Below are positions 2,245 through 63,100 of a stretch of 64,000 nucleotides of DNA, one piece after another. Source of the DNA: Sphaerodactylus townsendi. Taxonomy: Eukaryota. Below the pieces are notes generated by a model. That model was given only the letters and a program-made list of their open reading frames with translations, ran no database searches and was not told where the DNA came from. Made by a program: the position numbers and the translations under genes. The DNA lies in assembly GCF_021028975.2 (NCBI RefSeq), contig NC_059438.1, positions 43,400,001-43,464,000 of the forward strand. Direction: 5' to 3'. Numbering within the stretch: position 1 is the first letter of the stretch; each line of letters opens with the position of its first letter.

Positions 2245-5136
2245 ACCAAGGGAGATAACGCTACAATACTCTGCCTCAGATGTTGACAAGGCAGTTGTTT
2301 TCTCGATCATCTCCACACTACAAGAACATCCCAGCATATTATTTAATAAGATAACCTGTTGCAGGACTTGCACTTCTTTCAGGAATCATCTGCACAAGAA
2401 CTATCTGCTGCAGCGGTTAACACTTGGGTTTTGTTTGGAGCTATCACCAAGCAAAAAATGCTGTGTACCTTTTAAATAACGAATGACAAGGTTTCACACC
2501 TTGCCCAAGCATGTAGTGTGGGTTTAGACACAAGTCTGCTTAAAGTAGCTAACATTAAACATTATATCTGGTCTTGTCCAGTTTGCCAAATGGGCCCAAA
2601 CTTCCAATGACAGAGCGATATATAATTCAGGATTATCAAAAAGAAACATCAGAATCTTTTCTTTCCTTTAGTGAACTTCCAGTAGACATGGGTGTCTTTT
2701 CGCTTTTGGCTTTCTACTTTAAGCCCGGTACTCGCCTATGAGGTTCTTCTATTTTGTCTTTTCTGACTTAGCAGCAAGGTTCCTTCTGCTGTTTTTTAAT
2801 TATGCTAATACCTAGATAGGTTTTCAGGTAGCCTAGGTCTCTTTCTACCTGAAATGTCTTCTTCAAACTGTCATAGAGCATCAGTTGATTTGAGCATCAG
2901 TTAAAGGCAGTAACACACATGTCATCTACGTAAACGAATTAGTGATGACTTGCTTCCTTGGCCTTCACCTTTAGTATAAACACAAGGATCCATAACGCTT
3001 CGTTTGAAAACCTAGTTTACACAAAACCATCATGCAAACACTGATTCCAATTTCTAGCTGCCTGGTATTGTTATTAGGGCTGTACAGCGATTTACATAGT
3101 TTGTACATCTCTTGCTCCTTTTCAACTTGCATATCCAGGTGCTGGTTTCATGTATACATCCCTCTGTCAGAGGAGCACATGCAAATATGCACAATAACCC
3201 CGGACGTCAAGGTGGCGTGATTCTCCATTCCTCCCTTGCATTGCTACAGCTAGCACCAGTCTCATAGACTCAGCAGCCTTGGCAGTAGGCGAATATGTTT
3301 TGCTCATAATTTTTCTAGATAGGTTTTGCCCTCGTAGCCCCTGGAGCAACCAAGCGAGCTTTGTACAAGCTATCCCACATTGGGCAATGATTTCTTCTTG
3401 TACACCCAGCGTGGGTCCAACCACTTTCAAAATTCATCATCCATAGCAGCATTCCGCGATTCTTGTTCCTCAGGAGGTCCTAGTTACCATCTCCTGGAAA
3501 CTTTTGAGACTTCTACTCATGTTTGACAGATCCTAATAACCTGAGTAACACCAAATCTTTGTGGCGGCACTCCTTTATTTTCTCTGTTGGACCTGCAAGT
3601 GGGGAAAATCAACACGCCTAGCGTTTTCCTCTTCTTTATCAGAGTCCTGAACTGGCTCTGCTGTCCTCTCTCTCTCTGCTTCACTCTAGGAATGTGACCT
3701 TGAGCAGAGGAGGTTGAATTGGCATCTGGCTACTGGATTGCTGCACCTGCAGGCTGTTCATAGTTAAGGCAGGCAGAAAAAAACTTCTGAATTAGAATGA
3801 ACATGCTCCCAACCTGTGTGTCTCTCAAAGTTGGCACTTCTAGAGACCACAATTCTGCCATAAAATTCAGACTAAATCTATAACCTTTTGTGTTTTTCTG
3901 CATAGCCTGTAAAACCTTTTAATCTCTGATTACCTGGGTTTTCCTTTTTAGTTCTCTCTGTGCACCTGGTATCAAGACATTTCGGCCAAGCTCCCAAACC
4001 TTCTCAGGTGTGTCCAATGAGGGTTTCTTGCTTGCCAACAACAACATGTAATGGGGTGTTTTCCTGAATGCTGGAACTCCAGAGGCGATTAATTACGTGA
4101 GTTACGCAGCACAGACACCTCCCCCAATAGTGAAAGGGTAGTTTTGCATCCTCAAGCATGCAGATCACGCATCACCTGCAAAACCCCCAAGCGTCTTCTC
4201 TGATGCCCCGTTCCCCTGGTAAAGGCATTAAAGGATTCGCTTGTCCTGTGCACAATCCCCTTCTTTGCCAACCAGGATTGAAAGGCTTTACTTTCATGTA
4301 CTGCGCTAGCGGTGATCCGCTTTGTAACCTACAGCTACCTTGTAGGGGTGGTTTCTCTCTCAATCATGGCAACCCATTAATCCTGGAACCTTTTCACAGG
4401 CTTCTGCTTTTGGATTTTAACAGTAGACACTAAGAGTACCTACTATAATCATCCACTAATCAACATGATGTAACATGCACTCCCCTTTGGCTAGCTGGAA
4501 AAAGGTCCAGCAAAGCCTGTCAGAATGGACCAAAGCAAAAGGTCTGTCTGTTTGTCTGTTGCTGGCTTTAGCAACTTAGGAAGAGGCTTTAACCTTGCAG
4601 CCTACTACAAACAGAACACTCCAGGTAATGTTTACAGGGTTTTACTTGTATATGTCACACACCTTAGCTAACTGCTTTTATAGTGGACCACCCTGCATGA
4701 CCCAATTTACTGCGGTGTAGCAACTTTCGTGCACACAATTTAATGGGTATAAAGGCTTGTTAGACAGAGACTGGATAGTTGTTTACACTCCCACTGAGCT
4801 ACCTTTGGGAATCATGTGGTACAACATATCCCTTTAGTTGTCCCTTTGCACACACAACACATTATTCTTGTTCACATAGCACATGTCATTATTAAATGTG
4901 ACTTTATACCCCTCCTGAACAAGAAGACGCATACACTTAACAAATTAAAAGTCTAGGTGGGGGGGACTAGTAACACATTTTGAATATTAAGTCCAAAAGC
5001 AGGTACATACACAGTTCCTTGTAAAGTCACCTCTGATGATGAATCATCAGCAAGGCTTACATGAGAAATATTAGCAACGGTTTCATCCTGAAGCAAACTT
5101 CTGTCGTTTTACACAATGTGCGTTACGGGCGAACTA
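2245..5136 (-). mobile_element. Ty1/copia LTR retrotransposon pol (protease end, integrase, RT, start of RNase H), heavily frameshifted; 3' end missing
   Basis: Minus-strand motifs in copia order: HxxLGH (~4700), WLAKKGIVH (~4260), YKARLVA (~3355), TYSPTA..HLDV..AYLH (~3180-3300), DPCVY (~2980), YVDD (2921-2932), TRPDI (~2570), YLKGT (~2470), ALSTSEAEY (~2270-2295). Confidence 0.9.
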
Positions 5137-5445
5137 TGTAAAAGGATTCAATATGGTGTTGATATGAAGAGCTGGGCAACCTTGGCTGCTGACTACATTC
5201 CACAGCCCGAGGCGATGGGCCAGCTTCTTAGCGGAGATTGCTTATCTCGCGAGGGAGATGAGACCTTACTCGTTCCAGCCGGGAGAAATCGAGGAGGGAT
5301 GGGATGGACTGGGATAACCTGGCAATGAACCTGGCGGAGATCTTATTCCTGCCACTCTAAGGTGTGCGAGCTTTCTAAGATGTCTGAATAAACGGTCTTT
5401 TACACCAAAGAGCCTTTTATTTCTGCTTCTATGGAATTCCTTACA
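5137..5445 (+). repeat. gypsy 5' LTR
   Basis: tgtaaaaggattcaa...ggaattccttaca, with AATAAA; matches 10968-11263 and 47508-47792. Confidence 0.92.
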
Positions 5446-5447
5446 TT

Positions 5448-5458
5448 GTGGCAGGAAT
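5448..5458 (+). other. Self-priming type primer-binding site
   Basis: GTGGCAGGAAT is the exact reverse complement of ATTCCTGCCAC at 5345-5355 within the LTR. Confidence 0.8.
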
Positions 5459-8400
5459 CCTAATTCATCTATATTCCTAGTGCAGTGGACCTCTGGTGCC
5501 TCGGCATGGAGAGGTTGGATGTTTCTGGGGAAGGTGCGGTAGCCCCCCCAAGAAGGGCTCCGTCCTTTCCCCTTCTGAATCTGGAGGAACCGTGAGGAAG
5601 CGAGGGTCACCGCTGGTGACTCTTTCCCGTCCTAAATATCAGCTTACGAGTCTTCCTTTACTCCCGTTGGAGCGAGGGGCGTGAAAGGCGACCATGGGGA
5701 CTTGTATGAGTAGTTTGGTAAGCTCTATGGATCGGCGTACCTGTGGATCGGATCTCTACCGTTTTAGGTATGGAGTTACAAACCTCAGATGCAACTACTG
5801 TCGCGGAGGCAGGCCGTTGACCTGACCACCTTTCATCACGGCAACCCAGGGAGTCCATTGAGCGATTCCTGGACTCATTATTTTGGTGATGTCTCCCAAG
5901 GAACCACCGTGGCACAGCACGCAGGACCCGATCGAGACCACCCGGTGACACTGGGACTATACCAGAGGAGTTGGGAGGGAGTATCCATTACCGTCTTCGA
6001 TCGGACCCCCCTGATCCCGGAACTGGCTGGCTGCACCGCAGATGCCCGTGGAGCCACCCGATTAGAATTACGATACTTTCCAGCGTCCAGGCGGCGAGGA
6101 GTCGAGGAAAAGCCAACACTCCCAGCCGGATCTGTTCCCTCTCCCATCGAAGGGGGGGGCTGGGATGAGGAAGTGGGCCGACTTCGCGAGATGCCCAGAA
6201 GCATGGGCCGATGAGCGCCAGCTATGGGAAGAGCGGGGAACAGCTGCAGCAAAGGCGTGAAAACCTGCAGAAGGCGAGGGGAGCAGCAGCGCCAAAGAAG
6301 AAGTCCAACTTCGAATTGGACTGTGCAGAAGCTCAAGCGACGTATCGCGAGAATCATCAGTCCGTGATAAAGTCCTGGAACACTCCAAACTGAACCTACA
6401 GCGTCAACGAGAAGTGTTCCGGACGCTAGCATTACACAAAGTGAGCTTACTGCAGCTGTTCAATGGGGCGAACTGGCTAAGAATTGGAGCGGGAGAAAGC
6501 AGCTTTTACATCGCGCGCCAGGATGCACTGACTGTAAAGGAGAGCTGGCTGCCTTGGAAGGGAACTGAAGAAGCAGCAGACCAGGGGACGAAGCCCAAAG
6601 TTGGAGTCATGTCGCTGCTCGGAATTTGCAAGCCACGGCCAGAGGCGGCAGCTGCTGGAGTCCAACCACCTTCGGAACCGGCTCCCACGAGGAACACCAG
6701 CGTACCGGCGTTACGATACCTCCTGCCGATTCCGCCCCAGCGCCCAACTGCTGCCTCAACCAGCTCAACCTGGCACGCCGCCTCTGGTCAGTAAGCCAAG
6801 GGGAAACCGTGGAAGGGTTACTACAGACCTCCAATACCTGCCCGTTTCGATGGGACCGCTTCCAAACTTCCCTACTTCAATCTTTACGGCTTCGATGCCC
6901 ACATGGAGGACTATGATGATTTATATACCCGGTCTGGCCTTGGCGAAAAAATCACGGGGACATCGGCTCAGTCCTGGATGGGGCAGCAGCCCGACTGGTT
7001 TTGTGTCTCTTTGAACCTGCAAGGATGAAGATACTGCGCCGCGGTACCCGCATTCCTCAAGCCTTGAGGGGCTGCAACTTCCAGATCAGGTGCGGAATGA
7101 AATATCCGCACCATCAAAACTATTCAACAAGGCAACCGCTTCGTTTTGCAGAATTTGCCCATTAATTCGTCGCGGCTGCTTTCGTTCCACCTCCTGGTGG
7201 CCTGGCGCGTAAATCACGAATACTTCGGATGCTGTCAGCGACGAAGCTGCGTGAAAGCGGTGTTTTAATTGATTCCCCTTTTATTGCTGATTGGATTGAA
7301 TTAGGATCCCAAGTGGTCGGCAGATGCGGCGCTTCGTGCGAATACGCCGGCCAGCCCGGCCCTCGATCACCAAGCCAACCCAGCCGCCCTACGAGACCAC
7401 CTCCGGCCATTAAGCGACTGGGATTGTCTTTACCGAGGTCGGTCATCTAGCAGCCAACTGCCGAAAAAACAAGCCCACCACTCGGCCGCTGCCCATCTGT
7501 AAACCCTGCGCAAATCAGGGCCGCTAGCGAACTCGTCTAAAACAGTCATCGAAGGCGACCGGAGGAGGAAGCAGCTGTTTGCCTTTCTTCAACCCAATGG
7601 ACATGGGTTGCGACTCAGGCAGCGGTGAGTGAAGGCAGCTCCCATTACAATCAGCGTTTCCTGGCCAACCCGCTAAAACACACTTTCGTATTATAGCCTC
7701 AGCCCTTGGCGGATTCTGGCTGCTCCCATTGTTTAATCTTTGACTAAGTGGCCGGAGAACTGGGGTCTAGACCAAGTCCCCTGGCTAAGCCATACCTTTC
7801 ACCCAAATGGGCTGACGGTCTCACCGGTGAGGACCGGCCAGTTCAAAGCAACGGTTTACTCCTCGCTGCGCCCGACCATTGGGGAGAATTAGTTTTATTC
7901 TGGCGCCAGTGAAGCTAAACACTCCATAGTTCTGGGCATGCCATGGTTGTTGTTACATGAACCAAATTCCTTTGGAAAGAAAGGATCTTGGAATTCACTG
8001 ACCCTCCTGCGAGAACACACATGAAGCTTCGACTTCTCCTGACACACCTGGCTTCATCAGCGATTGCTCGATTCTACCGACATCCCACCGGCGTGCCAAG
8101 GTCTAGCCAGAGTATTTCAGGAGCAAGAATCACGTTGGTTGCCACCCCATAGAGACACTGACTGCAAAATCGTATGCAGCCAGGCAACTGCCCAAAGGTA
8201 GAATCTGCCATTATGAGTCCCAATGAGGGAGAAGAGGAACTTACGTGCCTTCTTAGACAAGAACCTGGCTTCGCCCGGGTTCATACGATGAACTACCAAA
8301 CACACATGCTGCTCCTGTTTTGTTTGTAAAGAAAGATGGGTCTTTCTGACTCTGCACCACAGATTACCCGAGGTCTCAATGCGGTCTCCCTGTCCAATAA

Positions 8401-10967
8401 ATACCCTTTGCCTTTGATCAAAAGGACCTTTTAGGCGCGTATTGGAGCAGGGCGCATCTTTACTAAGTTGGACTTGAGAAGAAGCTTATTACAGAGTCAG
8501 AATTGCTGAAGGCTATGAACACTTGACTTCGTTTAACACAAAGTTTGGACAGTTTGAATACTTAATATTGCCATTCGAGGGTTAAGTGGGGCCCGAACTT
8601 TTTATGGCCCTTGTATCAGCGAAGTTCTCCATGATTTATTGTACAAGGGGAGTAGTGGTGTGGCGCAGATGGCGTTTTAATTTATTCACAAACCATGGAG
8701 GGCATGAAGCTTTTGAAGTTCGGAGGTATTAAAACGCTTGCTCAACAACTCCCTGCTGCCAAACTTTCAAAGTGCTGTTCCACCAAACCTCTATTGACTA
8801 TTTGGGTTACGGATCTGCGCCGGGGCTAAATGGATCCTGCTAAAATTGATCTTGATCCTCAATGGCCGGCTACCAACAGCGAACTCAATCTTTTCTGGGG
8901 TTTTGCTAATTTCTATCGTGACTTTATACCCCAATTAGCTGAACTGACTCTCCCTCTCACAGACCTCTTCGCACTAAAGGTGAATCCACTGTACCGCCAA
9001 GCCGGGGCCCCTTTCCTGGTCTGAAGAAGAATGTCAGACAGCCTTTCAGCTTCTAAAGTCTGCTTTTACCACGAACCTATTCACAAGCACCCTGACCCAG
9101 ATCTCCGTTTGTGGTTCCGCATTGAATTAACGCCGGACAAAGCAGGGCAACCCTGTTGCAGAGAAATAAAGATGATAGGCTGGTTCCGTGTGCTTGTTAT
9201 CAAAAGAAATTCTCGGTGCTGAACTCAACTGGACTGTGGGGGGATAAAGAGACTGCTGACCATTAAAGTAGCACTCTCCACTTGAAGCCACTTTGTGGAG
9301 GGGGCTTCGCTTACCCCTTTCAAATTTGGTGGGATCGCAGAACCTGTACGCCCTCTCCACCCCCCCCCTCCGAATGTCGAAGCAACCCGTTGGGCCGTTT
9401 CTTTTTCGTTTCTCTTTACGGTCCATTTTTCCCGGAAAAACCAACAAACTGGCTGATCGCTCGGCGCCTACCGAGGGGTGGAGCCAGCTTCGCGAGGACA
9501 TTCGGCGCACTGTTCTCTCCCCTCCCAATTGGGGCTGGCTGTCACCGATCTCAGACATCCCACTCCTCCTTCGCCCATTCCCAGCCTGGTCTCTCCTTTC
9601 CCTCACGGGGAACTTGAGGCCCGGTGACGAGCCTCGGCGGGCGACTCCCAATTGCGTTTGGAGAATGGCGTTTGGCGGCGAGTTGTTGATGCGGTACCTC
9701 CACTTCCTCCGCAAGCAGGTTCACCGAGCCTGCCATGATGCCAGCTTCGGCTGGACATTTTGGCTTTCTAAAAACTCTGCATTTGGCCGCGCCGTCAATT
9801 CTGGTGGTAGCGATGCTTTAAGGATGAGGCGTGTATTAAAGGTTGCTTTCTGTTTGTGCAGAAGCCAAAGACCGTCCGGAAAACCCATGGTCTGTTTGAA
9901 ACCTCTCGGTAACTCCAGCCCTGGGAAGTCATCTCCATGGATTTTATTACAGATTTGCCAGAAAGTCGTAGCAACGGTCTTGTGGTGGTGGTGGACTTAT
10001 TTTCTAAACAAGCCCATTTTATTCCATGCTTCCATCCCCTCCGGCTCCTAAGTTAGCTTCGTCTGTTCATTCAGCATGTTTACCGTCTACTCCGCCCGTT
10101 AAAGGTGGTCTCCGACCTTTGACCCCAATTCATTTCAAAGTTCTGGAAACTTCTAGGGTTGTTGGGGCAGCCCGGTTGCCGCCCTACTGCACGTTCAAAG
10201 TGGCCGGTGATGGGAGAGCGAACAGAACCTAGAAGCAGTATTTCACGTTGTTACACCAACTACCACCAAGACGAATTGAAGTGCGGCTCATTCGTTCGCG
10301 AATGCGCCTACTCTGTAATCGCGGTTCATAGCGATGCGAAAAAAAAAGCCCTTGCCAATTGTGTGTCTGGTGCGGCTCCTTCCCACGTTGCGCAACTACC
10401 TCTTGAGCATTGGATCCTCAGAGTTTCAACAATGGATTTCATCTCTGGCGGGGTGAAATCCGGTCCAGACTGCCCTACAACAGGCTAAAGACTCCAAAAG
10501 CTGCAAGCGGATAAGCACCGCTTCGGATTTCCCTCTGGGTGAGCCTGGGTTATTGTCCAAAATCTCCAGAGAGCGTGCATAAATTTTCTAAACTAGGCAA
10601 AAGATTAGTGGGACCTTTTCAGATTACTAAAGAGTGATTAATGATGTCACTGCCCGATTAGTTTGCCTAACTCTCATAGTAACATTCATCCTGTCTTCCA
10701 TTCCAGTTTACTCAAGGAGGCTCCGTTTCCGATGCCTGGCCGCGACCGGAGGCCACCGACTATTATTGATGGCCACCAAGCATTGCGAAATTGGCGCCAT
10801 CCTGGACTCTGGCTTTAATGCTTAAGCAACACAATATTTAGTCTCTTGGGTGGGGTATTCCTCTGGGTATAATCAATGGGTTTATTCGAAAATATTGGCC
10901 CAGCCCTTATTTCTGCTTTCCACGCTCGCACAAACCTGGGGAGGGTCTTCTTTAAAGGGAGGCAGGG

Positions 10968-11263
10968 TGTAAAGGATTCAATGGTGTTGATGAGAGGGCA
11001 GCATGCAATGTGACTACATTCCACAGCCGGGCGATGGGCCCAGCTTCTTCGGTGAGGAGACCTTATCTCTGCGAGGGAGATGAGACCTCCGTTCCCCATG
11101 GGAATCGGGGAGGGATGGGATGGACAGAGGATTATAACCTGTGTTTCTGGTGAGGGAGATCTTATTCCTGCCACTCGCGTGTAGCAGGCTTTCTAAGATG
11201 TCTGAATAAGCGGTCTTTTACGCAAAAGGCCTTTTGTTTTCTGCTTCTATGGAATTCCTTACA
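10968..11263 (+). repeat. gypsy 3' LTR, preceded by polypurine tract aaagggaggcaggg
   Basis: tgtaaaggattcaa...ggaattccttaca. Confidence 0.92.
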
Positions 11264-12614
11264 CACTATCCATCAACCAGCTGCTTTGCTTTTTTTCTCC
11301 ACAGCGCAGACACCAACATGGCTTCGTCATACCGGTCGAGTGTTCTGGAGCTGTAAATCTTCCGTTTTGCCTTCTGTCCTTTCATCTGCCTTTTATTGCG
11401 GCGTCTGGACAGTTTTGGCGATGTGATTTCACGGACCCACAGCAGTAACATCTCCGGGCAGCATAGGCTTTTGCGAGCACCGTCTCTGATGAAACCTTCA
11501 CCTCAGGCGTTGTTGTCTCACAGGGGCAGCTCAACAGCCCGGCTCTCCTGCTGGAATTCCCTCTGTTGCTGACCTTCAAGCAGTTTGCTTGATCCGCGAA
11601 GGAAAGAGTGAGGTCTGCTTCTTTCCACACTTGTAAACTGCAAACCAGCTGATCCCAACTTTGGTCAAGGAATGACAAGATGATATACAATTTATGGGAC
11701 TCGGGAAAACCATCCACGGTCTTCCAGCTGGACAAATAAGGACCTCATTAGCTGCAAATGAGTGAAGCGCCTTTCACCAGCTTTCAGCTTGCACAGTTAT
11801 ATAGCCGTCTCTCTATCAGCGTGCAGACCCTGCTATTGTCTTTAACGATATATGGCCTTGGCCTCCAACATTCTTTCAGTTCTGATGTCCCAAACATACA
11901 GAAGCTGGGAGTTCTCCGCGACCAGAATTATGGAGAGCACGGGCTTTTGATCAGCTGGCGTCAGGCCTGCGTCGACAGCAGCCGGGGATGTCTCCACCAC
12001 AGACCACAAATCTTCCTGAATGAATGGGACTGCATCTTACAGCCCGCGACAAAACGGATTGGGCCAGCCGGAGGCGGTATAAAAGTAGAATAATAAATAA
12101 AAATAAAATAAATTGTCCTCACTGAGGCGTTCAAACGGCATACTGGCTGCTGTGAGCCGCCCATTGTAGACTCTGTACTGGACAGCCACACCACAGCTCA
12201 GGAACACACAGGAACCGCACCTTACTCACGGTGATCCCGCACTGGCTCGACATAACCTGATAGCAGAATTGATTGATTGCTTACTCGAGTAGAACTGGTG
12301 GTCTTGTACAGAACACTGCTACCTTCATGAAGTAAACTCCACACAGCTAAGTCATTCATAAAGAAGGCGACATAAATTTGTTGCTCTGTAACGAAGTAAC
12401 TGCTAGCAACGTAGAATATTCAGCAGACAATCAAAGCGCTTCGCCAAACACCCGTTTCCCTAAGGAACACTGATACAGTATAATACAAGTGCTTTTATAC
12501 ATGACTCAACCAATCATGGTAAAGGTCACTTGGAACAGGTTAGAACCGGTTTGTCAGCTCAGTCTCATGCTGACTCATGCTGGATAGGATATGAACACTT
12601 TAACTGTCATGACA
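11264..12614 (-). mobile_element. Ty1/copia 5' part: LTR (~12258-12614), PBS, gag with CCHC knuckle, protease WLMDSG
   Basis: ORF 11382-11735 has ILSFLDQSWDQLVCSL and RCYCCGS..H...CP; TGG TTG ATG GAT AGT G abuts the gypsy 3' LTR; minus-strand TGTCA...TATCA LTR with TATAAAA (~12495), followed by GGTTATG. Confidence 0.8.
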
Positions 12615-14400
12615 TAGTCCACATAGGCTACCTCATAGAATTCTCCAAAATCCCGAAGCCTCGCTTCCAGGGGTCTCCAATCCACCGCAATCCAGAAAAA
12701 AAATTAAGGACACAAAAAGCCATTCACCACCTACTCCAGATTCAGGCCATAGAACCAGTACCGCCTTCGGAACGGTTCCGCGGAATTTACTCCCACTTCT
12801 TTACCGTGCCCAAGCACAACGGAGAATGGTGAGCAATCCTAAATCTGCGGTACGTCAATAGGTCCATCCATCTTCGCCGATTCAAGATGGAAACTCTCTG
12901 GTCCATAGTAGAGAACCTACGACCAGGGGACCATCTGACTTCCCTAGACCTCACCGAGGCCTACTTACACATTCCAATCAACCCACGCCACAGATGCTTC
13001 CTGAGGTTTGCCGTGGGAGAAGAACACTTTCAGTACAGGGCCTTACCATTTGGGTTAGCCACAGCCCCACGCATTTTTACCAAGGTCCTAATGGCCCCAA
13101 TCACGGCCCTGAGAGAACAGGGTGTTCACGTCCATCCGTATCTGGACGACATCCTGATCAGGTCAACCTCCAGACAACAGGCAAAGTCAGACGTGGAATG
13201 AGTTATGAGAACACTTGTCTATCATGGTTTCTTAGTCAACTTGCAAAAGAATTCACTCGTGTCAACGACCCGCATGGAACATCTAGGGGCTGTGATAGAT
13301 ACTCAAACCAACGCGCTATACATTCCTCACAGCAAAGCCATCAAAATACAGAGACTTGTGATATCCATTCTCCAGGCCAGGAGGGTCTCACTCCTGCTAC
13401 TAGCCAAATTGATGGGTCTTCTCATATCAATCATAGACATGCTACAATGGGCCCGCTTCCATGCGAGAACTCTACAGAGGTTCCTCAGGCCCTACCAATG
13501 GCACATCATGCAGAAAAAGGACAGATCATTAGAGATCCCCATACAGGTCAAAAGCAGTCTCCTTTGGTGGTCACATCGCAAGAACTGTCAACCAGCAAGT
13601 CGTACCTACACGACAACAGACTCCAGATATTCACCGATGCCAGCCTTCGAGGTTGGGGAGCATCTTTCAACGACCACATAGCTCAGGGAATCTCGACTCC
13701 AGACCAGTCACACCTTCCCATCAACCTTCTAGAAATGATGGCCATACGTCTTGCGCTGCAACAGTTTCAGTCATCCATTCAAGGTCATCATGTACTGGTG
13801 AGAACAGACAATGTGGCAGCCAAAGCCCACCTCAACAACCAGGGGGGTTCGAGATCCCTCAGACTTCATCGGGAAGCTGTCAACATTCTTTCGTGGGCCG
13901 AAACACACCTCAAATCACTATCAGCGGAACACATCAGGGGAAACCTTAACATCGAAGCAGATTGGCTGAGCAGACAGACCATTCTAAAGGTGGAGTGGAA
14001 ACTCCATCCAGCAATCTTTCGTCAAATAACCCAAGCTTTGGGAATCCCCCTGATAGATCTGTTTGCATCAGAAAAGAATACACAACTCCCAGTCTTCTTC
14101 TCCAGATACCATCATCACCACACAGCAGCCACGGATGCCCTGACCGCCCCATGGCCCCCAGGCCTTCTATATGCCTTTCCACCGGTCCCAGTCATCCCCA
14201 AGCTTCTACGGAAGATCTGGAGGGAGAGGGCAGAATTCATCCTGGTCGCTCCATGGTGGCCCATACGACCATGGTTCTCATCCATTCTTCAACTGTCCAA
14301 GACCCGACCCATTCGCCTGCCGACTCCTCCAGACAGCATGTCTCAAGGCCCTATACTTCATCCAAAACCCCAACTGGTTCTGTCTAACCGCATGGCACTT
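12615..14400 (+). pseudogene. DIRS pol: reverse transcriptase, RNase H and methyltransferase-like domain, with stops and a frameshift
   Basis: FTVPK, LDLTEAYLHIPI, QYRALPFGLATAPRIFTK, YLDD, FTDAS, INLLE, RTDN, N..ADWLSR, DLFAS, YAFPP; TGA stops at 12830 and 13199. Confidence 0.92.
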
Positions 14401-15410
14401 GAGCGCGCAACACTAGAAAGGAAGGGTTACTCTTCTAAGGTGATCGAAACATCATTGCCTCCCGCCGCCCATCCACTCTTCGCATTTACGATTCTTCCTG
14501 GAAATCCTTCGTAAAATGGGCAAACAAGCACGGCACGGATCCCATCCGACCCAAGGTCGCTCAGGTTTTATCCTTTCTTCAAGCAGGTTTGGAATGGGGA
14601 CTTAGTAGCGCGACACTCAGAAGACAGGTTACAGCATTATCCATGGTTTGGGTCCGACTACAAGGAATTCCAGCCTCCAAGCATCCAGACATCCTTTGTT
14701 TCCTTAAAGGCGTACGGCAATCTTAACCACTGGTCATCCATAGGTTTCCATCTTGGAAATTGAACACTGTACTGAATGCTCTTACCAAACCACCATTTGA
14801 GCCTATCCAATCTATACCCCTGAGGTGGCTTCGCATGAAACTACTATTTCTGACTGCAATCACGTCTGCAAGAAGGGTTTCTGAACTTCGGGCACTCTCG
14901 GTGAACTCTCAACTATGTGTCTTCCACAAGAGCAAAGTTGTGATGCGCCTTGACCCCACCTTCACCCCAAAAGTGGGATCATCATTTCACCTCAAACAGG
15001 AAATCATACTTCTTACCTTTTTCCCATCTCCAAAACACCCAAAAGAAATCCTGTGGCATACACTGGATGTTAGGAGATCACTTAAAGCCTACATTATACG
15101 CACTGAAGACATCAGAAAAACAGAGGCCTTGTTCATCAATGTCTCAACACCTAACCTGGGAGCACAAATGTCACATGCCGCCATTAGTTCCACCATCAGA
15201 GCATGCATCACAGAGGCATACAAAGCTTCTAACATACCTATACCCTTAGGGATTACAGCTCACTCTACCAGAAGCGCAGCAGACAATGCAGCACTTATAC
15301 GTCTAATCCCGGTGGAGGACATTTGCAAGGCTACTTCATAAACACTACAGACTACAGTCCATGGCTGATAACAACACAGTTTTTGGACATAGAGTACTAG
15401 AACACATTTT
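14392..15410 (+). pseudogene. DIRS tyrosine recombinase (disrupted)
   Basis: KPPFEP, TSARRVSEL, LDVRR, AHSTRS catalytic motifs in ORF 14760-15341; upstream part interrupted by a frameshift and a stop. Confidence 0.9.
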
Positions 15411-17670: not shown

Positions 17671-19169
17671 GAGAATCCTTATGGGCACTCTTCCTAGCCC
17701 ATGTTCTATTTCCAGGACACAGCTAAACTTGGTAACGAACCAGGGGCTGGAGTGGGGGGGAGGGGTTAGAAAGAGCCCAGGATATGTCATTAGCTGTAAA
17801 TCGCTCACATGATGTGTTGATTGGAGCGTGTCTAGGATCTGGGACACTCCAAATTTGAATCTCCACTCTGGCATGGAAACTTGCTGGGTGACCTTGAACT
17901 ACTCATACACTCTCGACCTAATGTATTTCATAGGATTGTTATGAAAATATTGGAAGAGGGGAGAACGTAGTGCGCCACTTTTGGTCCATGTTATGAAGAA
18001 AAGTATATAAATCAATAAGGGTAAATAAATTTTAAAAAACAAAGGGTTAGTGAGACCTGGTCTGTATAACATCCTAATGAAAGTGACAGCACCTTTGCCA
18101 GTTTGTTCAGGAGCAAGACCCACTGTATTCAATGTTGCTTACTCCCAGGTAAGTGTGTAAGCAGTTAGACCCTCCTAAGTTCACTGACTTCAATGGATTT
18201 CAGAGTGTAATTTGCTAACACTAGGATTCCATTGTAAGACTGAGTCAACGGAGGTCATAATTGATGAAATTGGAACTTGGCATTCAGAGAAATATTTAAG
18301 TCATCAGTAGATTTGTACGTAAGACAGATACTAAACACTTTTTCCTGCTGCATTCACTGGTCCTCCACAGCTCTTTTTTAAAATTAATAAAAATCTGAAA
18401 TAATTTCAACTGCCAGTGGAAAGGATGAAAATGAGGCTCATTGCAATTACATGTTATTGTCCTAGAGTTTGTAGGCTGAGCAGTTCAATGTTAAAATGAA
18501 CTCTTCTTGCTCCTGGGAATTCACAAGCTGGCTATATTCTAGGAATATGAACATTCCCTGAAATGTACTGCAACCATTCCTTTTTAGAGGATTCTTAGTG
18601 AAATTACAATAAATAAGAACATTGCAAGCAATTAGCATCCAGTTCGTAGTCTCTTACTCCCATTTTAATAAGAATCTGCTTTACTGCTTTTCAGTGGCCA
18701 TTCAGAATTCAGAACAAACCATGTAACTGCTATCACAAAATTTCAGCATTTCAGTACATAAGACCATGTCTCAATTTTATCCACCAGTGGATATTCCTTT
18801 ATATTCTGAATCTTTGTTCAGTTCATACTATTTGTTCAATTATCAGTTTCCAAACTAGACTGACACACATTTGTGTTGTGGAAGACAAAAATACTAGATT
18901 GCCTCCTGGAATTCTCACATGAACTTTAATAGCTGAATTGGGGCGGGGGGGGGGGGGGAATCTCGCCGCAACCTGGCCTCTAAAGAGGTTCCTGGCAGCA
19001 CACACTGGAAGAAAACACACTGGAGGGAAATCCTTCAGTCGGGCTGCAGGCCCTCCCCTCTATGTGGCTCAATGAACTGCACCTCACTTTTAGCTGGCAT
19101 AGTGGCCAGAATCAAAAGGGAGTGTTCCTGGGATGAAAGCCCTCAGGAAGCTCAGCAGAAACATATTGT

Positions 19170-19430
19170 GGAAGGCTTTCATGGCCGGATTCAACTGGTT
19201 GTTGTGGTTTTTCTGGGCTGTGTGACCATCGTCTGGTAGATCTTGTTCCTACCGTTTTGCCTGCAGAGAGAAGTCTGTTAACACACTGTGTCCAGTGACA
19301 GCTGGACAGTGTGTAACATACTTCCCTCTGTAATACAACTCTGAAGATGCCAGTCACAGATGCAGGCGAAACGTTAGGAACAAGATGTACCAGACCACGG
19401 CCACGCAGCCTGGAAAACCCACCACAACTT
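19170..19430. mobile_element. Penelope-like terminal repeat remnant forming an inverted repeat
   Basis: gaaggctttcatggccggattcaactgg...gaagatgccag...ggcgaaacgttaggaacaag; same family as 25996-26255. Confidence 0.65.
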
Positions 19431-22095: not shown

Positions 22096-51416
<29,321 letters not shown>

Positions 51417-52366
51417 CGCCCTGGCCCTCCACGCCGCCGTCGCCGCGCAGGGAGGGAGGGAGGGAGGGAGGGAGGCGGGCGCACAGCTGGCTGCCCCCTC
51501 CCCCGAGGAGAGAGAGGCTGACTGCCCGGCCGCCCCTCTGCTGCCCAAGCGGAGCGGGGGTCGCCTCACCCTCGCGGGGGGGGGGCACGGGGGCCGAGAT
51601 TCGCTGGCTGTGACGGGGGCTCTTGGACGGGCGCGCGCGATGATGGGGCTGCCGCGGAGCGGAGCAGGGAAGGGAGAGCGGGGGCACGCGGGGGGGGGGT
51701 GTCGGGGAGCAGAATGGCGACCCCCCCCGCCCTTCCAGCTCCCCAGACGCCGCCCGCGCCCCGCGGTCGCCTTGCGCTGCCTGCATCGGCCCCTGACCTG
51801 ACCTGATCGGGCCGCGGGGGGAGGCCTTTCGCATCACCTCCCCCGCCCCAATGGAAAGGCCGGGGCTTGACAGCCGAGCGGAGGGGCTTCTGCAGGCCAA
51901 GGAGGGCCGCCCTCCGCCATGAGGCCGCACCCTCATCAGGGAGGATATCTGCACATGCACAGATAACATGCTTTATGGGCCTTTCATATACGGCATGTCT
52001 ATAGAGAGCGTGTGTGGGGGGGGGGGGCATTCCCTGCAGTAGCCTCTTGGCTGGGCCTCGCCAGGACTGCAGAGGGCACCCCCCCTGCCCCCCCCCAGAC
52101 ATGAGGGTTCCCTGTGGCCGCCTCTGCCTTGGCCGGGGTCTCTCTCAGCCCCCCCCCCCCTCAAGAGGAGGCGGGGGCGAAGGGGGGGAGCGGAGTGGCC
52201 CGGCCCGGCCTGTGGTGGCGGCGCCGCCCCGTTCGTCCGCCGGCCCGTCCTTCCCTGCGCAGCCACCCCGGGTCCCGCCCCCTCCGCGACTGGGCCTGAA
52301 GGCCCGGGCGGAGCCTTGTCCGCAGGGCGCCGGCCCCGCGCTGCTGGGCGGGCAGGAGCTTCGGGG

Positions 52367-52761
52367 ATGCGGCGGCGGCGGCGTCGAGGGGCGCGGGGCG
52401 GCGGGGCCGCGGCGGTGCTGGGGGCGGTGGCGGTGGTGCTGGCGCTGGCGGCGGGGGGGCTGCTGCTGCTGAGGCCCGGCGGCGGCGGCGGCGGGGGGTC
52501 GTCGCTGGCGGCGGAGGCAGGGGGCGCGGAGGCGTCGTCGTCGTCGTCGGGGGGCGTCGGGCCGGCGAGGCCGGTGTACGAGAAGCCGGCGCTGGGGCTG
52601 GGGCCGGCGCTGGGCGAGCTGGGCCGGGCGGCGCGGCTGGAGCCGGGCAGCGAGCGGGAGCGCGCGCGGCAGGAGGAGGGCGTCCGCCGCCACCAGATCA
52701 ACGTCTTCCTCAGCGACCGCATCTCGCTTCACCGCCGCCTGCCCGAGCGCCGCCTCCCCAG
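52367..52761 (+). CDS. GALNT12: Polypeptide N-acetylgalactosaminyltransferase 12, exon 1 (later exons not found in the window)
   Basis: Basic tail and transmembrane helix, RPVYEKP, GELGRAARL, HQINVFLSDRISLHRRLPER; donor AG|GTGAGT; synteny with ANKS6. Confidence 0.92.
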
Positions 52762-54310
52762 GTGAGTCTCCGCCGCCAACGCCCCTAGAGAGAGAGCCGG
52801 GTTCGAATTCGCCGCCCGCCCTTCGGGGCCGAGGAGCCCCCTCCCCGCCCGCGGCGTGGCCGTGGCCCTTGCCGGTCCGAGGGAGCAGGACGGGGGGCTT
52901 ATGGGGGGGGGGGTCTGTGGGCGGGCGGCCTGCCCGCCCGCCCGCCCGCCTGCCTTCCATGCGTCCAGGGGACGGCCACCCTCACGGCGGGGGCGAGGCG
53001 CACCAGAGGCAGGACGTGGCCGGCCAAGGTGGCCCGGGGGCGGGGGCGCACTGCCTGCCTGCCAGGATCCCTGTCCTGGCCTGAGTGCCCCCCCCCCGCC
53101 GCTGGCTGGCCTGAAAGGGGCCTCCCCCCCCCCCCCCCGGACCCCACCTGGCTGGCTCTGAGGCCGCCTCGCCCTCCCCTCGAAGCCCTTCTGAACAGGA
53201 CCCTTTTACTAAGGTACAAAACTCTGCACACGTTTGAGTCCTGCAGCTGCTTCCTTTTGGAAAGAAGGGGGGGGGCTGGCTGATCCCTGGTGACCCCCAC
53301 CTGGCTGGGTGAGTTTGTGGCAGCACAAACAAGGAGTTCGGGAGCACCTTAACAGACCACTAGGGAGTTTGGAAGGGCAACCGTCTCTGTGGATTTCCGA
53401 CTACTTCCTCAATGTGAGAAAGTGGTTAGGGTGGGGCTGTTTGCAGGGAAAACAGAGGGAACACACAAAAGAGTGTTATGTAAAGCGCAAATGAAAAAAC
53501 GATTCAGCCAGAATGGGTTTTCACTTTGACTCTCTGGCAAGGGAAGCCGAGTGGTATATTTACTAAACACTGACACAAACATACATAATAAAACCAAGAG
53601 GGACAGTTGCCTTGCTTCTGTTGTGAGGTGAGACTCCAGAATATTTCTGAGTAAAGGCTACTCTCCAACCAAAGCAATACATTCTCAAATGCGGCTTTCT
53701 CTTTCAAATTACCGCCAGCCCTCTGTTTAGGGGCAGAGCATCTGCTTGGCACGTGTAAGTGTCCATCTCCAGTTAAAAGGACCTGTCTCTGCCTGAGGCC
53801 CTGGACTGCTGCTGCCAGATAGGGCTGGCCATGATGGACCAGTGGGCTGATCCAGTATGAGGCAGCTTTATGTTTTCAGGCGACACACTTCTAATCTGGA
53901 TGCCTCCTTGGAAAAAGACCAGCGCATGACTCCTCTGATTCTGCGTTAAAATAAAATGCAGAAAAGCAGAGTTGACACAAAGAACCGCTTGGCCTGTCCC
54001 CGTCAGGAGCTGTTGCCCCACAAATTCACTGTGAGTCAATACAGGTCCTCTGTTAATGGACATTCAGCCCTGTCCCCCTTTTGAAACACTGAGCCCTGCC
54101 CACCAAGAGTTCTGTTATCACGGGTGACAGGATCAGTGCCCCAGTTCTGTCATCTAGGCATGCCTGCTCGTTGCCGTCCTCAGATTGAGAGATCGGGACA
54201 GTCCTGGACTGGCTGTCCTCATTTCTCTGTGACTGGGGATGGCAGGTAGCGTCGCGGGGAGAGAACTCTGCGCGACACCCCATGATTTGTGGGGTGCTGA
54301 AAGGTGTAGG

Positions 54311-60100: not shown

Positions 60101-63100
60101 ATAGAGATCCACCTGGTATCTTGCTCCCACGAGATAACGGAAACAATCGTGGTTCTCATGAGACCAAAGTGTCAGGGGAAAGCCTAGTTATCTACTTTAT
60201 TTACCATAAAGTAAAAATCACGGAAAGAATGCCCCAGAATGGCAGTGGTAACATACAGCAGGCTGGTTACATATATCTTGTAGATATTGAGTTAGGAATG
60301 CATCTCAATCACCTAGATACAATCCCCCTGACAGGTCCTAAGAGAGTTCTGAGAGAGAGAATTGTGACTTATTGGTCCCCAATAAGCTTCACTTCATTTC
60401 ATAAGATAAGAGCTCCCGCACATGTAAAGAGACATGGATTCGTGCCCCTCTGACTCTTACCGCTACCCCCACCACACCCTCAGGCTGTAGACCCATCTTT
60501 TTTCTATAATACACACAGAGAGAAAGAGGGAGAATATGTTTATCCAAAAAATATAAAGTTTCATAAAGTTTTGTCCACAAAACACAAGTACCTTTATTTA
60601 CCTCTCTACTCCCCCACTTCAACCTAACACACACTATAACAATGATCTATGTAGTCCCCTCAGTAACTTTAGAACAGAACTCAGTTTTTTTCTGCTCCTG
60701 CCCTGATAACCTGACAATTATATGCCATTAAAGGTTGAATTGAATTAATAACCTGACAACATTGGTTGAAGAAGGCTGCAGTTGGTATACAGAGATGAGC
60801 TCTAGGTGTTAAACAACTTAACATTCTCATGGTTTTTATCCCCCCCACTTGTAACCCCCCCCCCAAAAAAAAAACCCCAGTGCAGATACCTAGATAATCA
60901 TTCTCAGTAGAAGTGTTGTTGATCTGCAATCCCATTCACATATTCTCTCAACTTTGTCAGGGGGTCTGGTTTCTGTTTGAAACCTACAGCATTTTGAAAC
61001 ACACAACAAAAGAAGAAAATAGAATTCTTATTCTCTGTGAATTTCACATTGTTCTAACTTCCCCACACACACACAAAGGAAAACAATATGGCTTGCCTTC
61101 TGCGACTTCCAGCAACTCTGAGGCCCACTCTGCATGGGCCTGTGAAGCAGTGGAACACCGGCATACATCATCATCATCATCATCATTATTATTATTATTA
61201 TTATTAATTCGATTTGATGTCAATAGAGCCCTGGGATCTTTCACACACTGCCGGGCGGCTGCCCTCAGAGCCGCCGCAGCCCGCGGAGGCACCTCCATTT
61301 TGTTTGTAAACTTACCTTCTCTTCCCTGCACAGCTCTGCAGGGATGAGGGGACACGCCCCCGTGGGCATAGCAATGTTTCGGGGGTTGGACGGCAGGAGG
61401 CGTGTCCCCTCGTCGCTGCAGAGCTGCACAGGGAAGAGATAGTAAGTTTACAAACAAGACAGAGACACCTAAAAGCGGTTCCTCCGACCTGGTGCCATTC
61501 ACTCGATACCAGGAAAAACACTGTTTTTGAAATGAGTCACTCATTGAGCAAGTTTCAAAAACAGCGTTTCCCTGCTGTGCGTCAGCTGTGCGAAGCACTC
61601 TGCCGGAACAGTGTTTTTACTGTTCCGGGGTGCTGTTTTTGGCCCATGCGGAGTGGGCCTGAGTCCCTAAAATTCATTTTGTTGGTGGTGTCCTAAAAAA
61701 AATAGAGATGTTCACAATGTACTTTGTGGACACTATATAACAGGTATGCAGAGGCCGCCCTCCCCCCTGAAGTCCGAGCCCAGATGTGACTGAGGGGTGG
61801 GTTTTTTGTGTATCCTGTGAGGCCAACCTGCTCCAAACTATCCCCTCTGTGCAGTCTCTAACCACAGGCCTATTCCAACAGCTACATTTATACCTCCCAA
61901 ACAGATAGTAACAGTTTGATATTTTTGACAGATCTTTCAGAATCAGCAGCTTCTTTTCTAAAGCCCCTGCATATTATTTATAGAAAGCTTAAACTTTTTC
62001 ACACACACAAAAAGATATTGAGACGTAAGAATCTTCACATAATTTTATTGTGTACACGTTATCATTTCATAATGTCATAGATGCATTCCACATTTTTATT
62101 TCAATAGATGTATGTGAATTACAAAAAATATTCAAACGATTTTCAGCATCAAACATTTTTCTGCAGATGTTTTTCAACCAGGGTTACATACGGCTTATGA
62201 TATTTCTGAGACAGCTTTCTCAAACTTTCAGTAGGCCTATGTGAACGAGCCACTCTATGGATGATTTTCTCTAGAGAGACATTGTGGCCCTGATGCACGG
62301 TAAAACATTTTAACGAAGAGCCTAATATCACGATTATATACAATGCAGGCTCTATATTGAGATTTTCATGGAAATGTTTTAAATTCTGATTGTAAATTTC
62401 AGCACCCCTGTCCAAATAATCATGGCCCATTTGGTTCCCGAGATCCAAAATGCAACCCTCACACTTGGCGCAACAAAGATCATCAACACAGTGCTGCATA
62501 ATTACAGAGATGACAGCTTGTGTTAGCTTGGCTAAGCTGACCTCCTTTTGGACCAGTCCACTGTTGGTAATTCAACATCCGTCAGCTTAGCATGATCACG
62601 CATAACCACCTGGAATGGTTTCCCAGCCACAGCTAGATTGAAAAAGGTGAATTTCTATAAGAAAAAACAAAAACATGTTTACACCCTGCATATTACTCAA
62701 CATGTCCCCAAACTCCTAGACCGGTGGTGGCGAACCTATGGCACAGGTGCTAGAGGTGGCACTCAGAGCCCTCTCTGTGGTCGCGCGCAAACAGAGTTCA
62801 TCATGTGTGGGGAAATCACCCCCACCGCCCCACACATCTAGGCTGGCCTGGGCGGCTGGGCTCGATTATTAGTGTTAAACCTAAGACCTAGCGTAGGTAG
62901 TAGAAGCAGTGTACGTAACCCTGTTAAGTGCTGTTAAACCCCACTGATTTTCATGCGAAGAACTAAAGCACGATCCTTTACCTGGGAGTAAGCTTGGTTG
63001 CTGGCAATGGGGCTTGCTTCTGAGTAAACCCTTCTAGGGTCGTGATTCACCCGTTCGAAGAGTTGCACGGTTGCTTCAAAGCAAAGCCACCGACTACCAC

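What the first reader, a model, noticed from the sequence alone, without database searches (positions are those of the whole stretch)
5310..5458. Reptile chromovirus with a self-priming (tRNA-independent) primer-binding site
Seen: two bases after the 5' LTR is GTGGCAGGAAT (5448-5458), the exact 11-nt reverse complement of ATTCCTGCCAC (5345-5355). That 11-mer is conserved in all three LTR copies, and in the 3' LTR and solo LTR it lies about 30 nt downstream of TATAA, where transcription should start. Known: fission yeast Tf1 primes reverse transcription by annealing the first 11 nt of its own mRNA to the PBS, and this mechanism has been predicted for vertebrate Tf1/sushi chromoviruses. The integrase here ends in a chromodomain. 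Inference: this squamate family uses the same mechanism.
Basis: partly seen in the sequence, partly recalled or inferred. Interest (0 to 1): 0.7.

Follow-up and report, generated by a model that had tools for sequence, protein, structure and literature searches.

The report
Self-priming reptile chromovirus with copying scars
A common jumping gene in this lizard genome has a primer site that pairs exactly with the predicted first 11 bases of its own RNA, its relatives keep that pairing with different letters, and rare copies carry over-copied scars at that site, so it likely starts DNA copying with its own RNA as yeast Tf1 does, a mechanism already predicted for vertebrate elements of this group.

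Summary
Confirmed. Two bases after the 5' LTR (5137-5445), bases 5448-5458 are the exact complement of 5345-5355, which lies about 30 nt after the TATA position. The element is a Ty3/gypsy chromovirus of a squamate clade with about 1,580 primer-site copies in the genome.

Of 34 relatives with a defined LTR end, 22 pair 11 of 11. They use 11 different sequences, with 9 of 11 positions varying. Nine of the 11 types lack the TGG needed for tRNA priming.

Extra evidence: 13 copies extend the complement 6-45 nt into U3, and no LTR-borne mirror event was found. That fits reverse transcription with a self-primer. The base after the primer site is C in 19 of 22, possibly copied from the RNA cap.

The transcription start and RNase H cut are inferred; no RNA holder was listed. 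The window copy looks unpolished. The mechanism is known from Tf1 and predicted for vertebrate Tf1/sushi elements, and this scan has noted self-priming before in ray, shark-like and moss genomes. Verdict: new member of a known kind, with unusually good genomic evidence.

The parts
5132..5136 (+). left target-site duplication AACTA (right copy CACTA at 11264-11268; 4 of 5 match)
5137..5445 (+). 5' LTR, 309 bp, TGTA..TACA
5313..5317 (+). TATA position of the 5' LTR (reads GATAA here; TATAA in the other two window LTRs and in all 29 other family copies examined)
5345..5355 (+). predicted self-primer: first 11 nt of R, starting at the A of an initiator-like TTATTCC
   Evidence: initiator consensus YYANWYY is recalled
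5387..5392 (+). AATAAA polyadenylation signal in the 5' LTR
5446..5447 (+). TT spacer between LTR end and PBS (TT in 28 of 30 relatives)
5448..5458 (+). primer-binding site GTGGCAGGAAT, exact complement of 5345-5355
5459..5459 (+). C after the PBS, conserved in 19 of 22 perfectly paired relatives; possibly copied from the RNA cap (inferred)
5459..10953 (+). leader and gag-pol region, broken by many frameshifts and stops in this copy
   Evidence: domain order from a related copy
10657..10719 (+). remnant of the Tf2-1-like SH3 domain of integrase (E 0.056)
10796..10885 (+). remnant of the chromodomain (E 0.0048)
10954..10967 (+). polypurine tract
10968..11263 (+). 3' LTR, 296 bp; TATAA 11133-11137, 11-mer 11164-11174
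47508..47792 (+). solo LTR of the same family with perfect TSD ATCAG/ATCAG; TATAA 47665-47669, 11-mer 47694-47704

Best explanation
This is a Ty3/gypsy chromodomain retrotransposon of a squamate clade whose primer-binding site is the exact complement of an 11-mer in its own LTR, and it likely primes reverse transcription with that 11-mer, the predicted 5' end of its own RNA, as yeast Tf1 does. Shown: the pairing, its fixed geometry (LTR end + 2 nt, 11 bp, loop 75-93 nt), its co-variation across families, the lack of a tRNA match, and one-sided scars. Inferred steps: (1) transcription starts at the A about 30 nt after the TATA box; (2) nt 1-11 anneal to the PBS; (3) RNase H cuts after nt 11 and the piece primes minus-strand DNA (by analogy with Tf1); (4) plus-strand DNA copies the primer back, which rewrites the PBS from the RNA 5' end each cycle and would explain why the pair drifts freely yet stays matched; (5) now and then the free PBS end mis-primes on an R 11-mer, or the primer starts a few bases earlier, which leaves copies whose PBS runs on into an inverted copy of U3.
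For: Co-variation: 60 of 150 SH3_Tf2-1 hits were fetched; 34 had a definable 5' LTR end; best pairing was 11/11 in 22, 10 in 4, 9 in 3, 8 or less in 5. The control, 3' host flank against the same LTR, gave 5-9 and never 10 or more in 30 elements. The 22 fall into 11 PBS sequences with mean pairwise identity 6.5 of 11 and 9 variable positions. Pairing stops at the predicted +1 in 19 of 22. All 18 perfect elements start with A, 17 after two pyrimidines, 17 with a loosely defined TATA-like word 29-32 nt upstream. Scars: of 1,579 LTR-end+PBS hits, 52 lack the following C, and these are 33 G, 13 A, 6 T; 26 of 30 assessable G and 7 of 8 A pair with the -1 base of their own LTR. Thirteen copies in two family groups extend by 6-45 exact bases, almost all to different end points. 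Mirror searches gave 3 hits, none in an LTR; 13 vs 0 gives p 2.4e-4 if symmetric. In L203 the inversion runs through U3 into the element's internal 3' end, not host flank; in L207 the 11-mer plus one A joins an inverted LTR end. Tf1 cDNA keeps a single-stranded PBS at its 3' end in about half of molecules and RT adds untemplated bases (PMC11042837, passages). The same +2 geometry appears in distant metagenome relatives: 3 of 20 LTR pairs with 9 bp or more, 4 more with 8 bp.
Against: The start site and the cut were not observed. 12 of 34 relatives do not pair perfectly; several have deletions starting inside the PBS or decayed LTRs, and 26 of 60 fetched loci were dropped for lack of a definable LTR end. 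The two flanking helices of the Tf1 'pretzel' were not supported beyond shuffles: R with LTR end p 0.09-0.83 in 13 of 13; U5 with leader p at most 0.023 in only 2 of 13. Four G variants do not pair with their own -1 base, and some one-base variants are probably inherited within a sub-lineage. The scar and mirror patterns are not equally sensitive by construction. The families are related, so the 11 types are not 11 independent events. No scar was confirmed in independent reads.
Confidence: 0.88

Rival explanations
1. Self-priming, but the regular primer is cut from the R copy at the 3' end of the RNA (or from a second RNA or an upstream-started transcript), so it carries U3 on its 5' side.
For: Long scars are inverted U3, and in L203 they continue into the internal 3' end, which is what lies 5' of the 3' R in the RNA. 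An earlier unchecked note proposed this for another Gypsy lineage (e1-7857552).
Against: Pairing stops exactly at the predicted +1 in 19 of 22 elements and in 1,527 of 1,579 hits the next base is C, which cannot pair with the pyrimidine at -1. A primer with U3 attached has no reason to stop there. Mis-priming of the plus-strand PBS end on the 3' R gives the same long scars.
Confidence: 0.07
2. Ordinary tRNA priming from the TGG at 5449-5451; the 11-bp match is an accessory hairpin or chance.
For: The window PBS contains TGG three bases after the LTR end. The host tRNA set retrieved was incomplete (45 matches, 30 loci).
Against: No excess of T-arm+TTCCTG sites (123 vs 132 control); no ARAGORN tRNA at the 30 examined. 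Nine of 11 PBS types in relatives have no TGG, and the PBS follows the LTR sequence, not a fixed tRNA.
Confidence: 0.02
3. The duplex is a real RNA structure for packaging, translation control or dimerisation, and priming uses something else.
For: Co-variation shows pairing, not priming. The 156-nt leader folds better than shuffles (z -2.57).
Against: The paired strand sits exactly where a PBS must be, no other primer site is present, and the scars and deletions begin at this site.
Confidence: 0.03
4. For the scars only: they come from host replication-fork template switching at the inverted repeat, or from long-read or assembly fold-back artefacts, not from reverse transcription.
For: Parts of the assembly are error-rich inside these repeats. 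Some scar loci are noisy (L202, L216, and L203 beyond the first 56 nt).
Against: Either process should also give mirror events and should copy host flank. No LTR-borne mirror event was found, and L203 copies element-internal sequence. L144 has matching TSDs and rejoins the internal region cleanly.
Confidence: 0.12

Closest known systems
Tf1/Tf2 of Schizosaccharomyces pombe (and Tj1, Tosmo1-3, Tcry1)
   Same: 11-nt 5' self-primer complementary to the PBS, cut between nt 11 and 12 by RNase H (PMC7175516, passages); chromodomain integrase; PBS just after the CA of the LTR (PMC10085805, passages). Gag through chromodomain lie in one reading frame in a related copy, as in Tf1/Tf2.
   Different: Priming is shown by experiment for Tf1 and only inferred here. 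The flanking duplexes of the three-duplex 'pretzel' were not statistically supported here. Gag here has a nucleocapsid-like stretch (weak PDB hits), whereas fission-yeast elements lack the CCHC motif.
V-clade vertebrate chromoviruses: sushi-ichi (Takifugu), Amn-ichi (Anolis), Amn-ni, Amn-san
   Same: Vertebrate chromoviruses of the Tf1/sushi group (PMC2774666, PMC6317226, passages), for which self-priming is stated as a common feature citing Butler et al. 2001. The 3' LTR end fits the Sushi motif CNTNACA (PMC3601003). Closest named proteins are from geckos, snakes and Anolis.
   Different: No named sushi-ichi or Amn-ichi sequence was available to compare. The 5' LTR end TGTAAAG differs at one position from the Sushi motif TGTYANR. 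Non-fission-yeast members are said mostly to use a -1 frameshift, which the copy examined here lacks. Butler 2001 and Piskurek 2009 were seen only as reference entries, so they may already show this pairing for reptile elements.
Plant Tcn1-clade and fungal Tf1/sushi chromoviruses
   Same: Self-priming predicted from PBS-LTR complementarity (PMC6317226, passages). Unnamed metagenome relatives at 42-51% RT identity show the same 2-nt offset.
   Different: Different hosts; the complete LTRs among the metagenome relatives are longer (about 570-690 bp) with loops of 82-259 nt.

Membership tests
Ty3/gypsy chromovirus | LTRs TG..CA with 5-bp TSD and PPT | tested here: met
   window 4 of 5 TSD match; 12 of 13 family copies with both LTRs measured have perfect 5-bp TSDs
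Ty3/gypsy chromovirus | domain order gag-PR-RT-RH-IN | tested here: met
   Pfam on a related copy; best PDB hit Ty3 RT, E 1.4e-71
Ty3/gypsy chromovirus | chromodomain at the integrase C-terminus | tested here: met
   E 1.9e-10 in a related copy; weak remnant in the window
Tf1/sushi group (self-priming) | no tRNA-complementary PBS | tested here: met
   host tRNA list incomplete
Tf1/sushi group (self-priming) | PBS complementary to an LTR motif at the predicted RNA 5' end | tested here: met
   22 of 34 perfect, 11 sequence types
Tf1/sushi group (self-priming) | the motif is the real transcription start | not testable with these tools
   TATA and initiator spacing only
Tf1/sushi group (self-priming) | three-duplex pretzel structure | tested here: inconclusive
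   short flanking helices can form but mostly do not beat shuffles
Tf1/sushi group (self-priming) | RNase H cut after nt 11 releases the primer | not testable with these tools
   indirect only: pairing never extends into the TT spacer in 22 of 22
V-clade (sushi-ichi, Amn-ichi) | RT groups with named sushi-ichi and Amn elements | tested here: inconclusive
   44-row RT tree: genome copies group with gecko, anole and snake proteins (100/100), apart from fish, frog, fungal and plant rows; no named reference element was in the tree and the root is a midpoint

The most novel reading that the evidence does not exclude
In this reptile lineage the PBS is rewritten every cycle from the capped 5' end of the element's own RNA, so each genomic PBS records the transcription start used in vivo: 11 templated bases plus a cap-templated C, one-base longer primers giving G or A in its place, and mis-primed strong-stop ends giving inverted-U3 scars. 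The genome would then hold a fossil read-out of self-primed reverse transcription in a vertebrate, and the same scar test could diagnose self-priming in any LTR family from assemblies alone.
Probability: 0.45. Interest if true: 0.6.

Novelty: new member of a known kind. Interest (0 to 1): 0.4.

Why it matters
Self-priming is proven only in fission yeast and predicted for vertebrate Tf1/sushi elements. Here a recently expanded vertebrate family with about 1,580 primer-site copies gives co-variation across 11 primer sequences and one-sided replication scars. That is much stronger than single-element complementarity and makes the prediction testable with ordinary RNA-end mapping. tRNA-independent priming would also free the element from control by tRNA fragments, which act on tRNA-primed elements (PMC7472051, start of abstract only). 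The mechanism itself is not new.

Tried and rejected
RNA: no RNA holder listed. Laying contigs of 4 runs on scar locus L203 was inconclusive: no piece bridged the scar junction and parts of the stretch had no cover.

Conservation among the 30 best BLAST hits (29 of 30 perfect) was not counted as evidence of function, because these young copies were selected for similarity to the query.

tRNA-Ala-like copies contain ATTCCTG, but 9 nt inside the 3' end, so they were rejected as primers. The pretzel side helices were not supported. A first PPT-based LTR finder on SH3 flanks was unreliable and was replaced by LTR-pair alignment; four valid elements dropped by the second pass were restored from the first.

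Mirror hits L223, L233 and L234 are not in LTRs. Scar-search hits L220, L224, L226 and L231 are not LTR-borne. Most metagenome relatives had truncated or no LTR pairs (26 of 80 with a pair, 20 ending in CA). The tree holds 20 of 21 genome copies asked for; L189 had no stop-free segment.

Not held, so not read: Levin 1995 and 1996, Lin and Levin 1997 and 1998, Atwood-Moore 2006, Esnault and Levin 2015. The supplements of PMC6317226 held as text had no Amn or Sushi entry, but only 17,418 characters were held, so unseen tables may list PBS types for these elements. A sequence look-up in earlier scan notes found nothing.

Full report
Observation. The window holds a 6.1-kb LTR element at 5137-11263 and a solo LTR at 47508-47792. 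After the 5' LTR come TT and then GTGGCAGGAAT (5448-5458), the exact complement of ATTCCTGCCAC at 5345-5355. The same 11-mer is in the 3' and solo LTRs, 31 and 29 nt after TATAA. The 11-mer begins at the A of TTATTCC or TCATTCC, which fits the initiator consensus YYANWYY (recalled). Folding from that A gives the 11-bp closing helix as the minimum-energy structure, z -2.57. Chance is about 2e-4 for a match anywhere in the LTR.

Quality of the window copy. It differs from one family copy by 461 substitutions and 305 gap openings in 5.5 kb. The flank at 4900-5109 also differs from contigs of all four public runs, for example 15 letters and 5 gaps in 210 nt in X3. This looks like unpolished long-read sequence (inference), so I rested the analysis on other copies.

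What the element is. A related copy shows Ty3 capsid, protease, RT, RNase H, integrase, Tf2-1-like SH3 and chromodomain in one frame, and Ty3 RT is the best solved relative. The closest named protein by identity is from the gecko Sphaerodactylus townsendi (88%), then Paroedura geckos, snakes and Anolis at 57-68%, and fish and frogs near 50%. In a 44-row RT tree the 20 genome copies sit in a squamate clade (100/100); no named Tf1, sushi-ichi or Amn-ichi row was available. The family is young: of 20 copies fetched, 13 had both LTRs measurable, with 0-7 substitutions and perfect 5-bp TSDs in 12. It is large: 1,527 exact LTR-end+PBS+C hits and 52 with another base. It is inserted into a copia-type remnant on the minus strand.

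Co-variation. I fetched 60 of 150 SH3_Tf2-1 hits and defined the 5' LTR end from the LTR pair, independent of the PBS. Of 34 with a defined end, 22 pair 11 of 11, 4 pair 10, 3 pair 9 and 5 pair 8 or fewer; 26 loci had no usable LTR pair. The host-flank control never exceeded 9 in 30 elements. The 22 use 11 different PBS sequences, for example AAGCCAAGAAT, AAGCTGAGAAT, ATGCGAAATCT, ATGCTGAGTCT and GTGGCAGGAAT. Only positions 3 and 11 are invariant, and mean identity between types is 6.5 of 11. The geometry is constant: a 2-nt spacer and loops of 75-93 nt. In 17 of the 18 perfect elements a loosely defined TATA-like word lies 29-32 nt upstream. Pairing stops at the predicted +1 in 19 of 22 and never enters the spacer. 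The families are related, so these are not independent trials, but decay or chance cannot keep two sites matched while both change.

tRNA rival. The window PBS has TGG at 5449. A genome search for a tRNA T-arm followed by the needed 3' end gave 123 hits against 132 for the reversed control, and ARAGORN found no tRNA at the 30 examined. Nine of the 11 types lack TGG. The host tRNA list obtained was partial.

Scars. One relative, L144, has a PBS that continues about 49 nt as an inverted copy of its own U3, through the TATA box, then rejoins the leader. Targeted searches found more. Among the 52 non-C hits of the window's family, 46 are purines and 6 are T, against the usual transition bias; 26 of 30 assessable G and 7 of 8 A pair with the -1 base of their own LTR, while 4 G do not and some are probably inherited. 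Thirteen copies in two family groups extend by 6-45 exact bases. A host replication slip or a library fold-back should produce the mirror product as often; two mirror searches gave three hits, none in an LTR (13 vs 0, p 2.4e-4; the patterns are not equally sensitive). In L203 the inversion runs through U3 into the element's internal 3' end rather than host flank. In L207 the 11-mer plus one A is joined to an inverted LTR end. L222 repeats the PBS after 22 extra bases. Seven scar copies have no recognisable internal sequence in the next 1.5 kb. These patterns fit a free plus-strand 3' end at PBS base 11, as reported for Tf1, where about half the cDNA keeps a single-stranded PBS and RT adds untemplated bases (PMC11042837, passages). 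The data do not separate mis-priming of that end from an occasionally longer primer, including one cut from the 3' R, a rival taken from note e1-7857552. The sharp stop at +1 in the great majority argues that the regular primer is the RNA 5' end.

Possible cap copy. The base after the PBS is C in 19 of 22 perfect elements, and the three exceptions are those whose pairing extends, while later leader bases vary. It is also C in two distant metagenome relatives with 10-bp pairing. That RT can insert C opposite an m7G cap is recalled; PMC11482623 (passages) describes untemplated C addition by MMLV RT only as a working model. This step is speculative.

Not supported. The two side helices of the Tf1 pretzel (PMC10085805, passages) can be drawn but mostly do not beat shuffles.

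Comparison with what is known. Tf1 primes with its first 11 bases, cut by RNase H between 11 and 12 (PMC7175516, passages; PMC5341516, passages; PMC4600332, passages). Self-priming is described as common to the Tf1/sushi group including vertebrates, citing Butler et al. 2001. A reptile chromovirus, Amn-ichi of Anolis, is known (PMC2774666, passages). One moss-clade element was reported with no evidence for either priming mode (PMC2864245, passages). Eight literature searches (listings and abstract starts) showed no paper on reptile self-priming or on PBS-extension scars, but Butler 2001, Piskurek 2009 and the Levin primary papers could not be read, and unseen supplements of PMC6317226 may bear on this. 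Earlier scan notes report similar signatures in ray, shark-like, marine-animal and moss genomes (unchecked).

Verdict. The element works like Tf1 with probability about 0.88. It meets the testable features of the Tf1/sushi group, with the pretzel and named-clade placement inconclusive. It is a new member of a known kind; the added value is the co-variation and the scars. Interest 0.4.

Noticed in passing
window 2790-3305, minus strand, and flanks to about 12100: The element is inserted into a broken copia-type element: RVT_2 E 1.2e-13. The right flank gave no Pfam hit.
   Followed up: partly
window 12862-15341 +: DIRS-like element: RNase H (E 9.7e-6) and a weak tyrosine-recombinase hit (E 0.006) in overlapping frames.
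   Followed up: partly
window 33144-35111 +: 655-aa open frame that looks like a CR1-type LINE ORF2 by eye.
   Followed up: no
window 19164-19428, 25996-26226, 29815-30016, 46373-46627, 61293-61464: Several 170-260-bp fold-back inverted repeats; earlier notes on this genome describe Penelope fold-back stubs of this size.
   Followed up: no
window 49761-52765: GC-rich divergent gene pair: ankyrin-repeat exon on the minus strand and a first exon on the plus strand that looks like a glycosyltransferase by eye.
   Followed up: no
L148, L146, L169, L170, L160 (5' LTR ends): Internal deletions begin inside the PBS after 1-10 bases, as expected from faulty second-strand transfer.
   Followed up: partly
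G000 C1642, C1720, C1:191757248 and 191763131: SH3 hits spaced about 5.9 kb apart suggest tandem elements sharing an LTR, like the integrase-independent tandems described for Tf1.
   Followed up: no
L327, L336, L337, L341 (metagenome contigs): Distant chromoviruses whose PBS pairs 8 bp at the +2 offset and, by eye, about 5 more after a one-base bulge or mismatch.
   Followed up: partly
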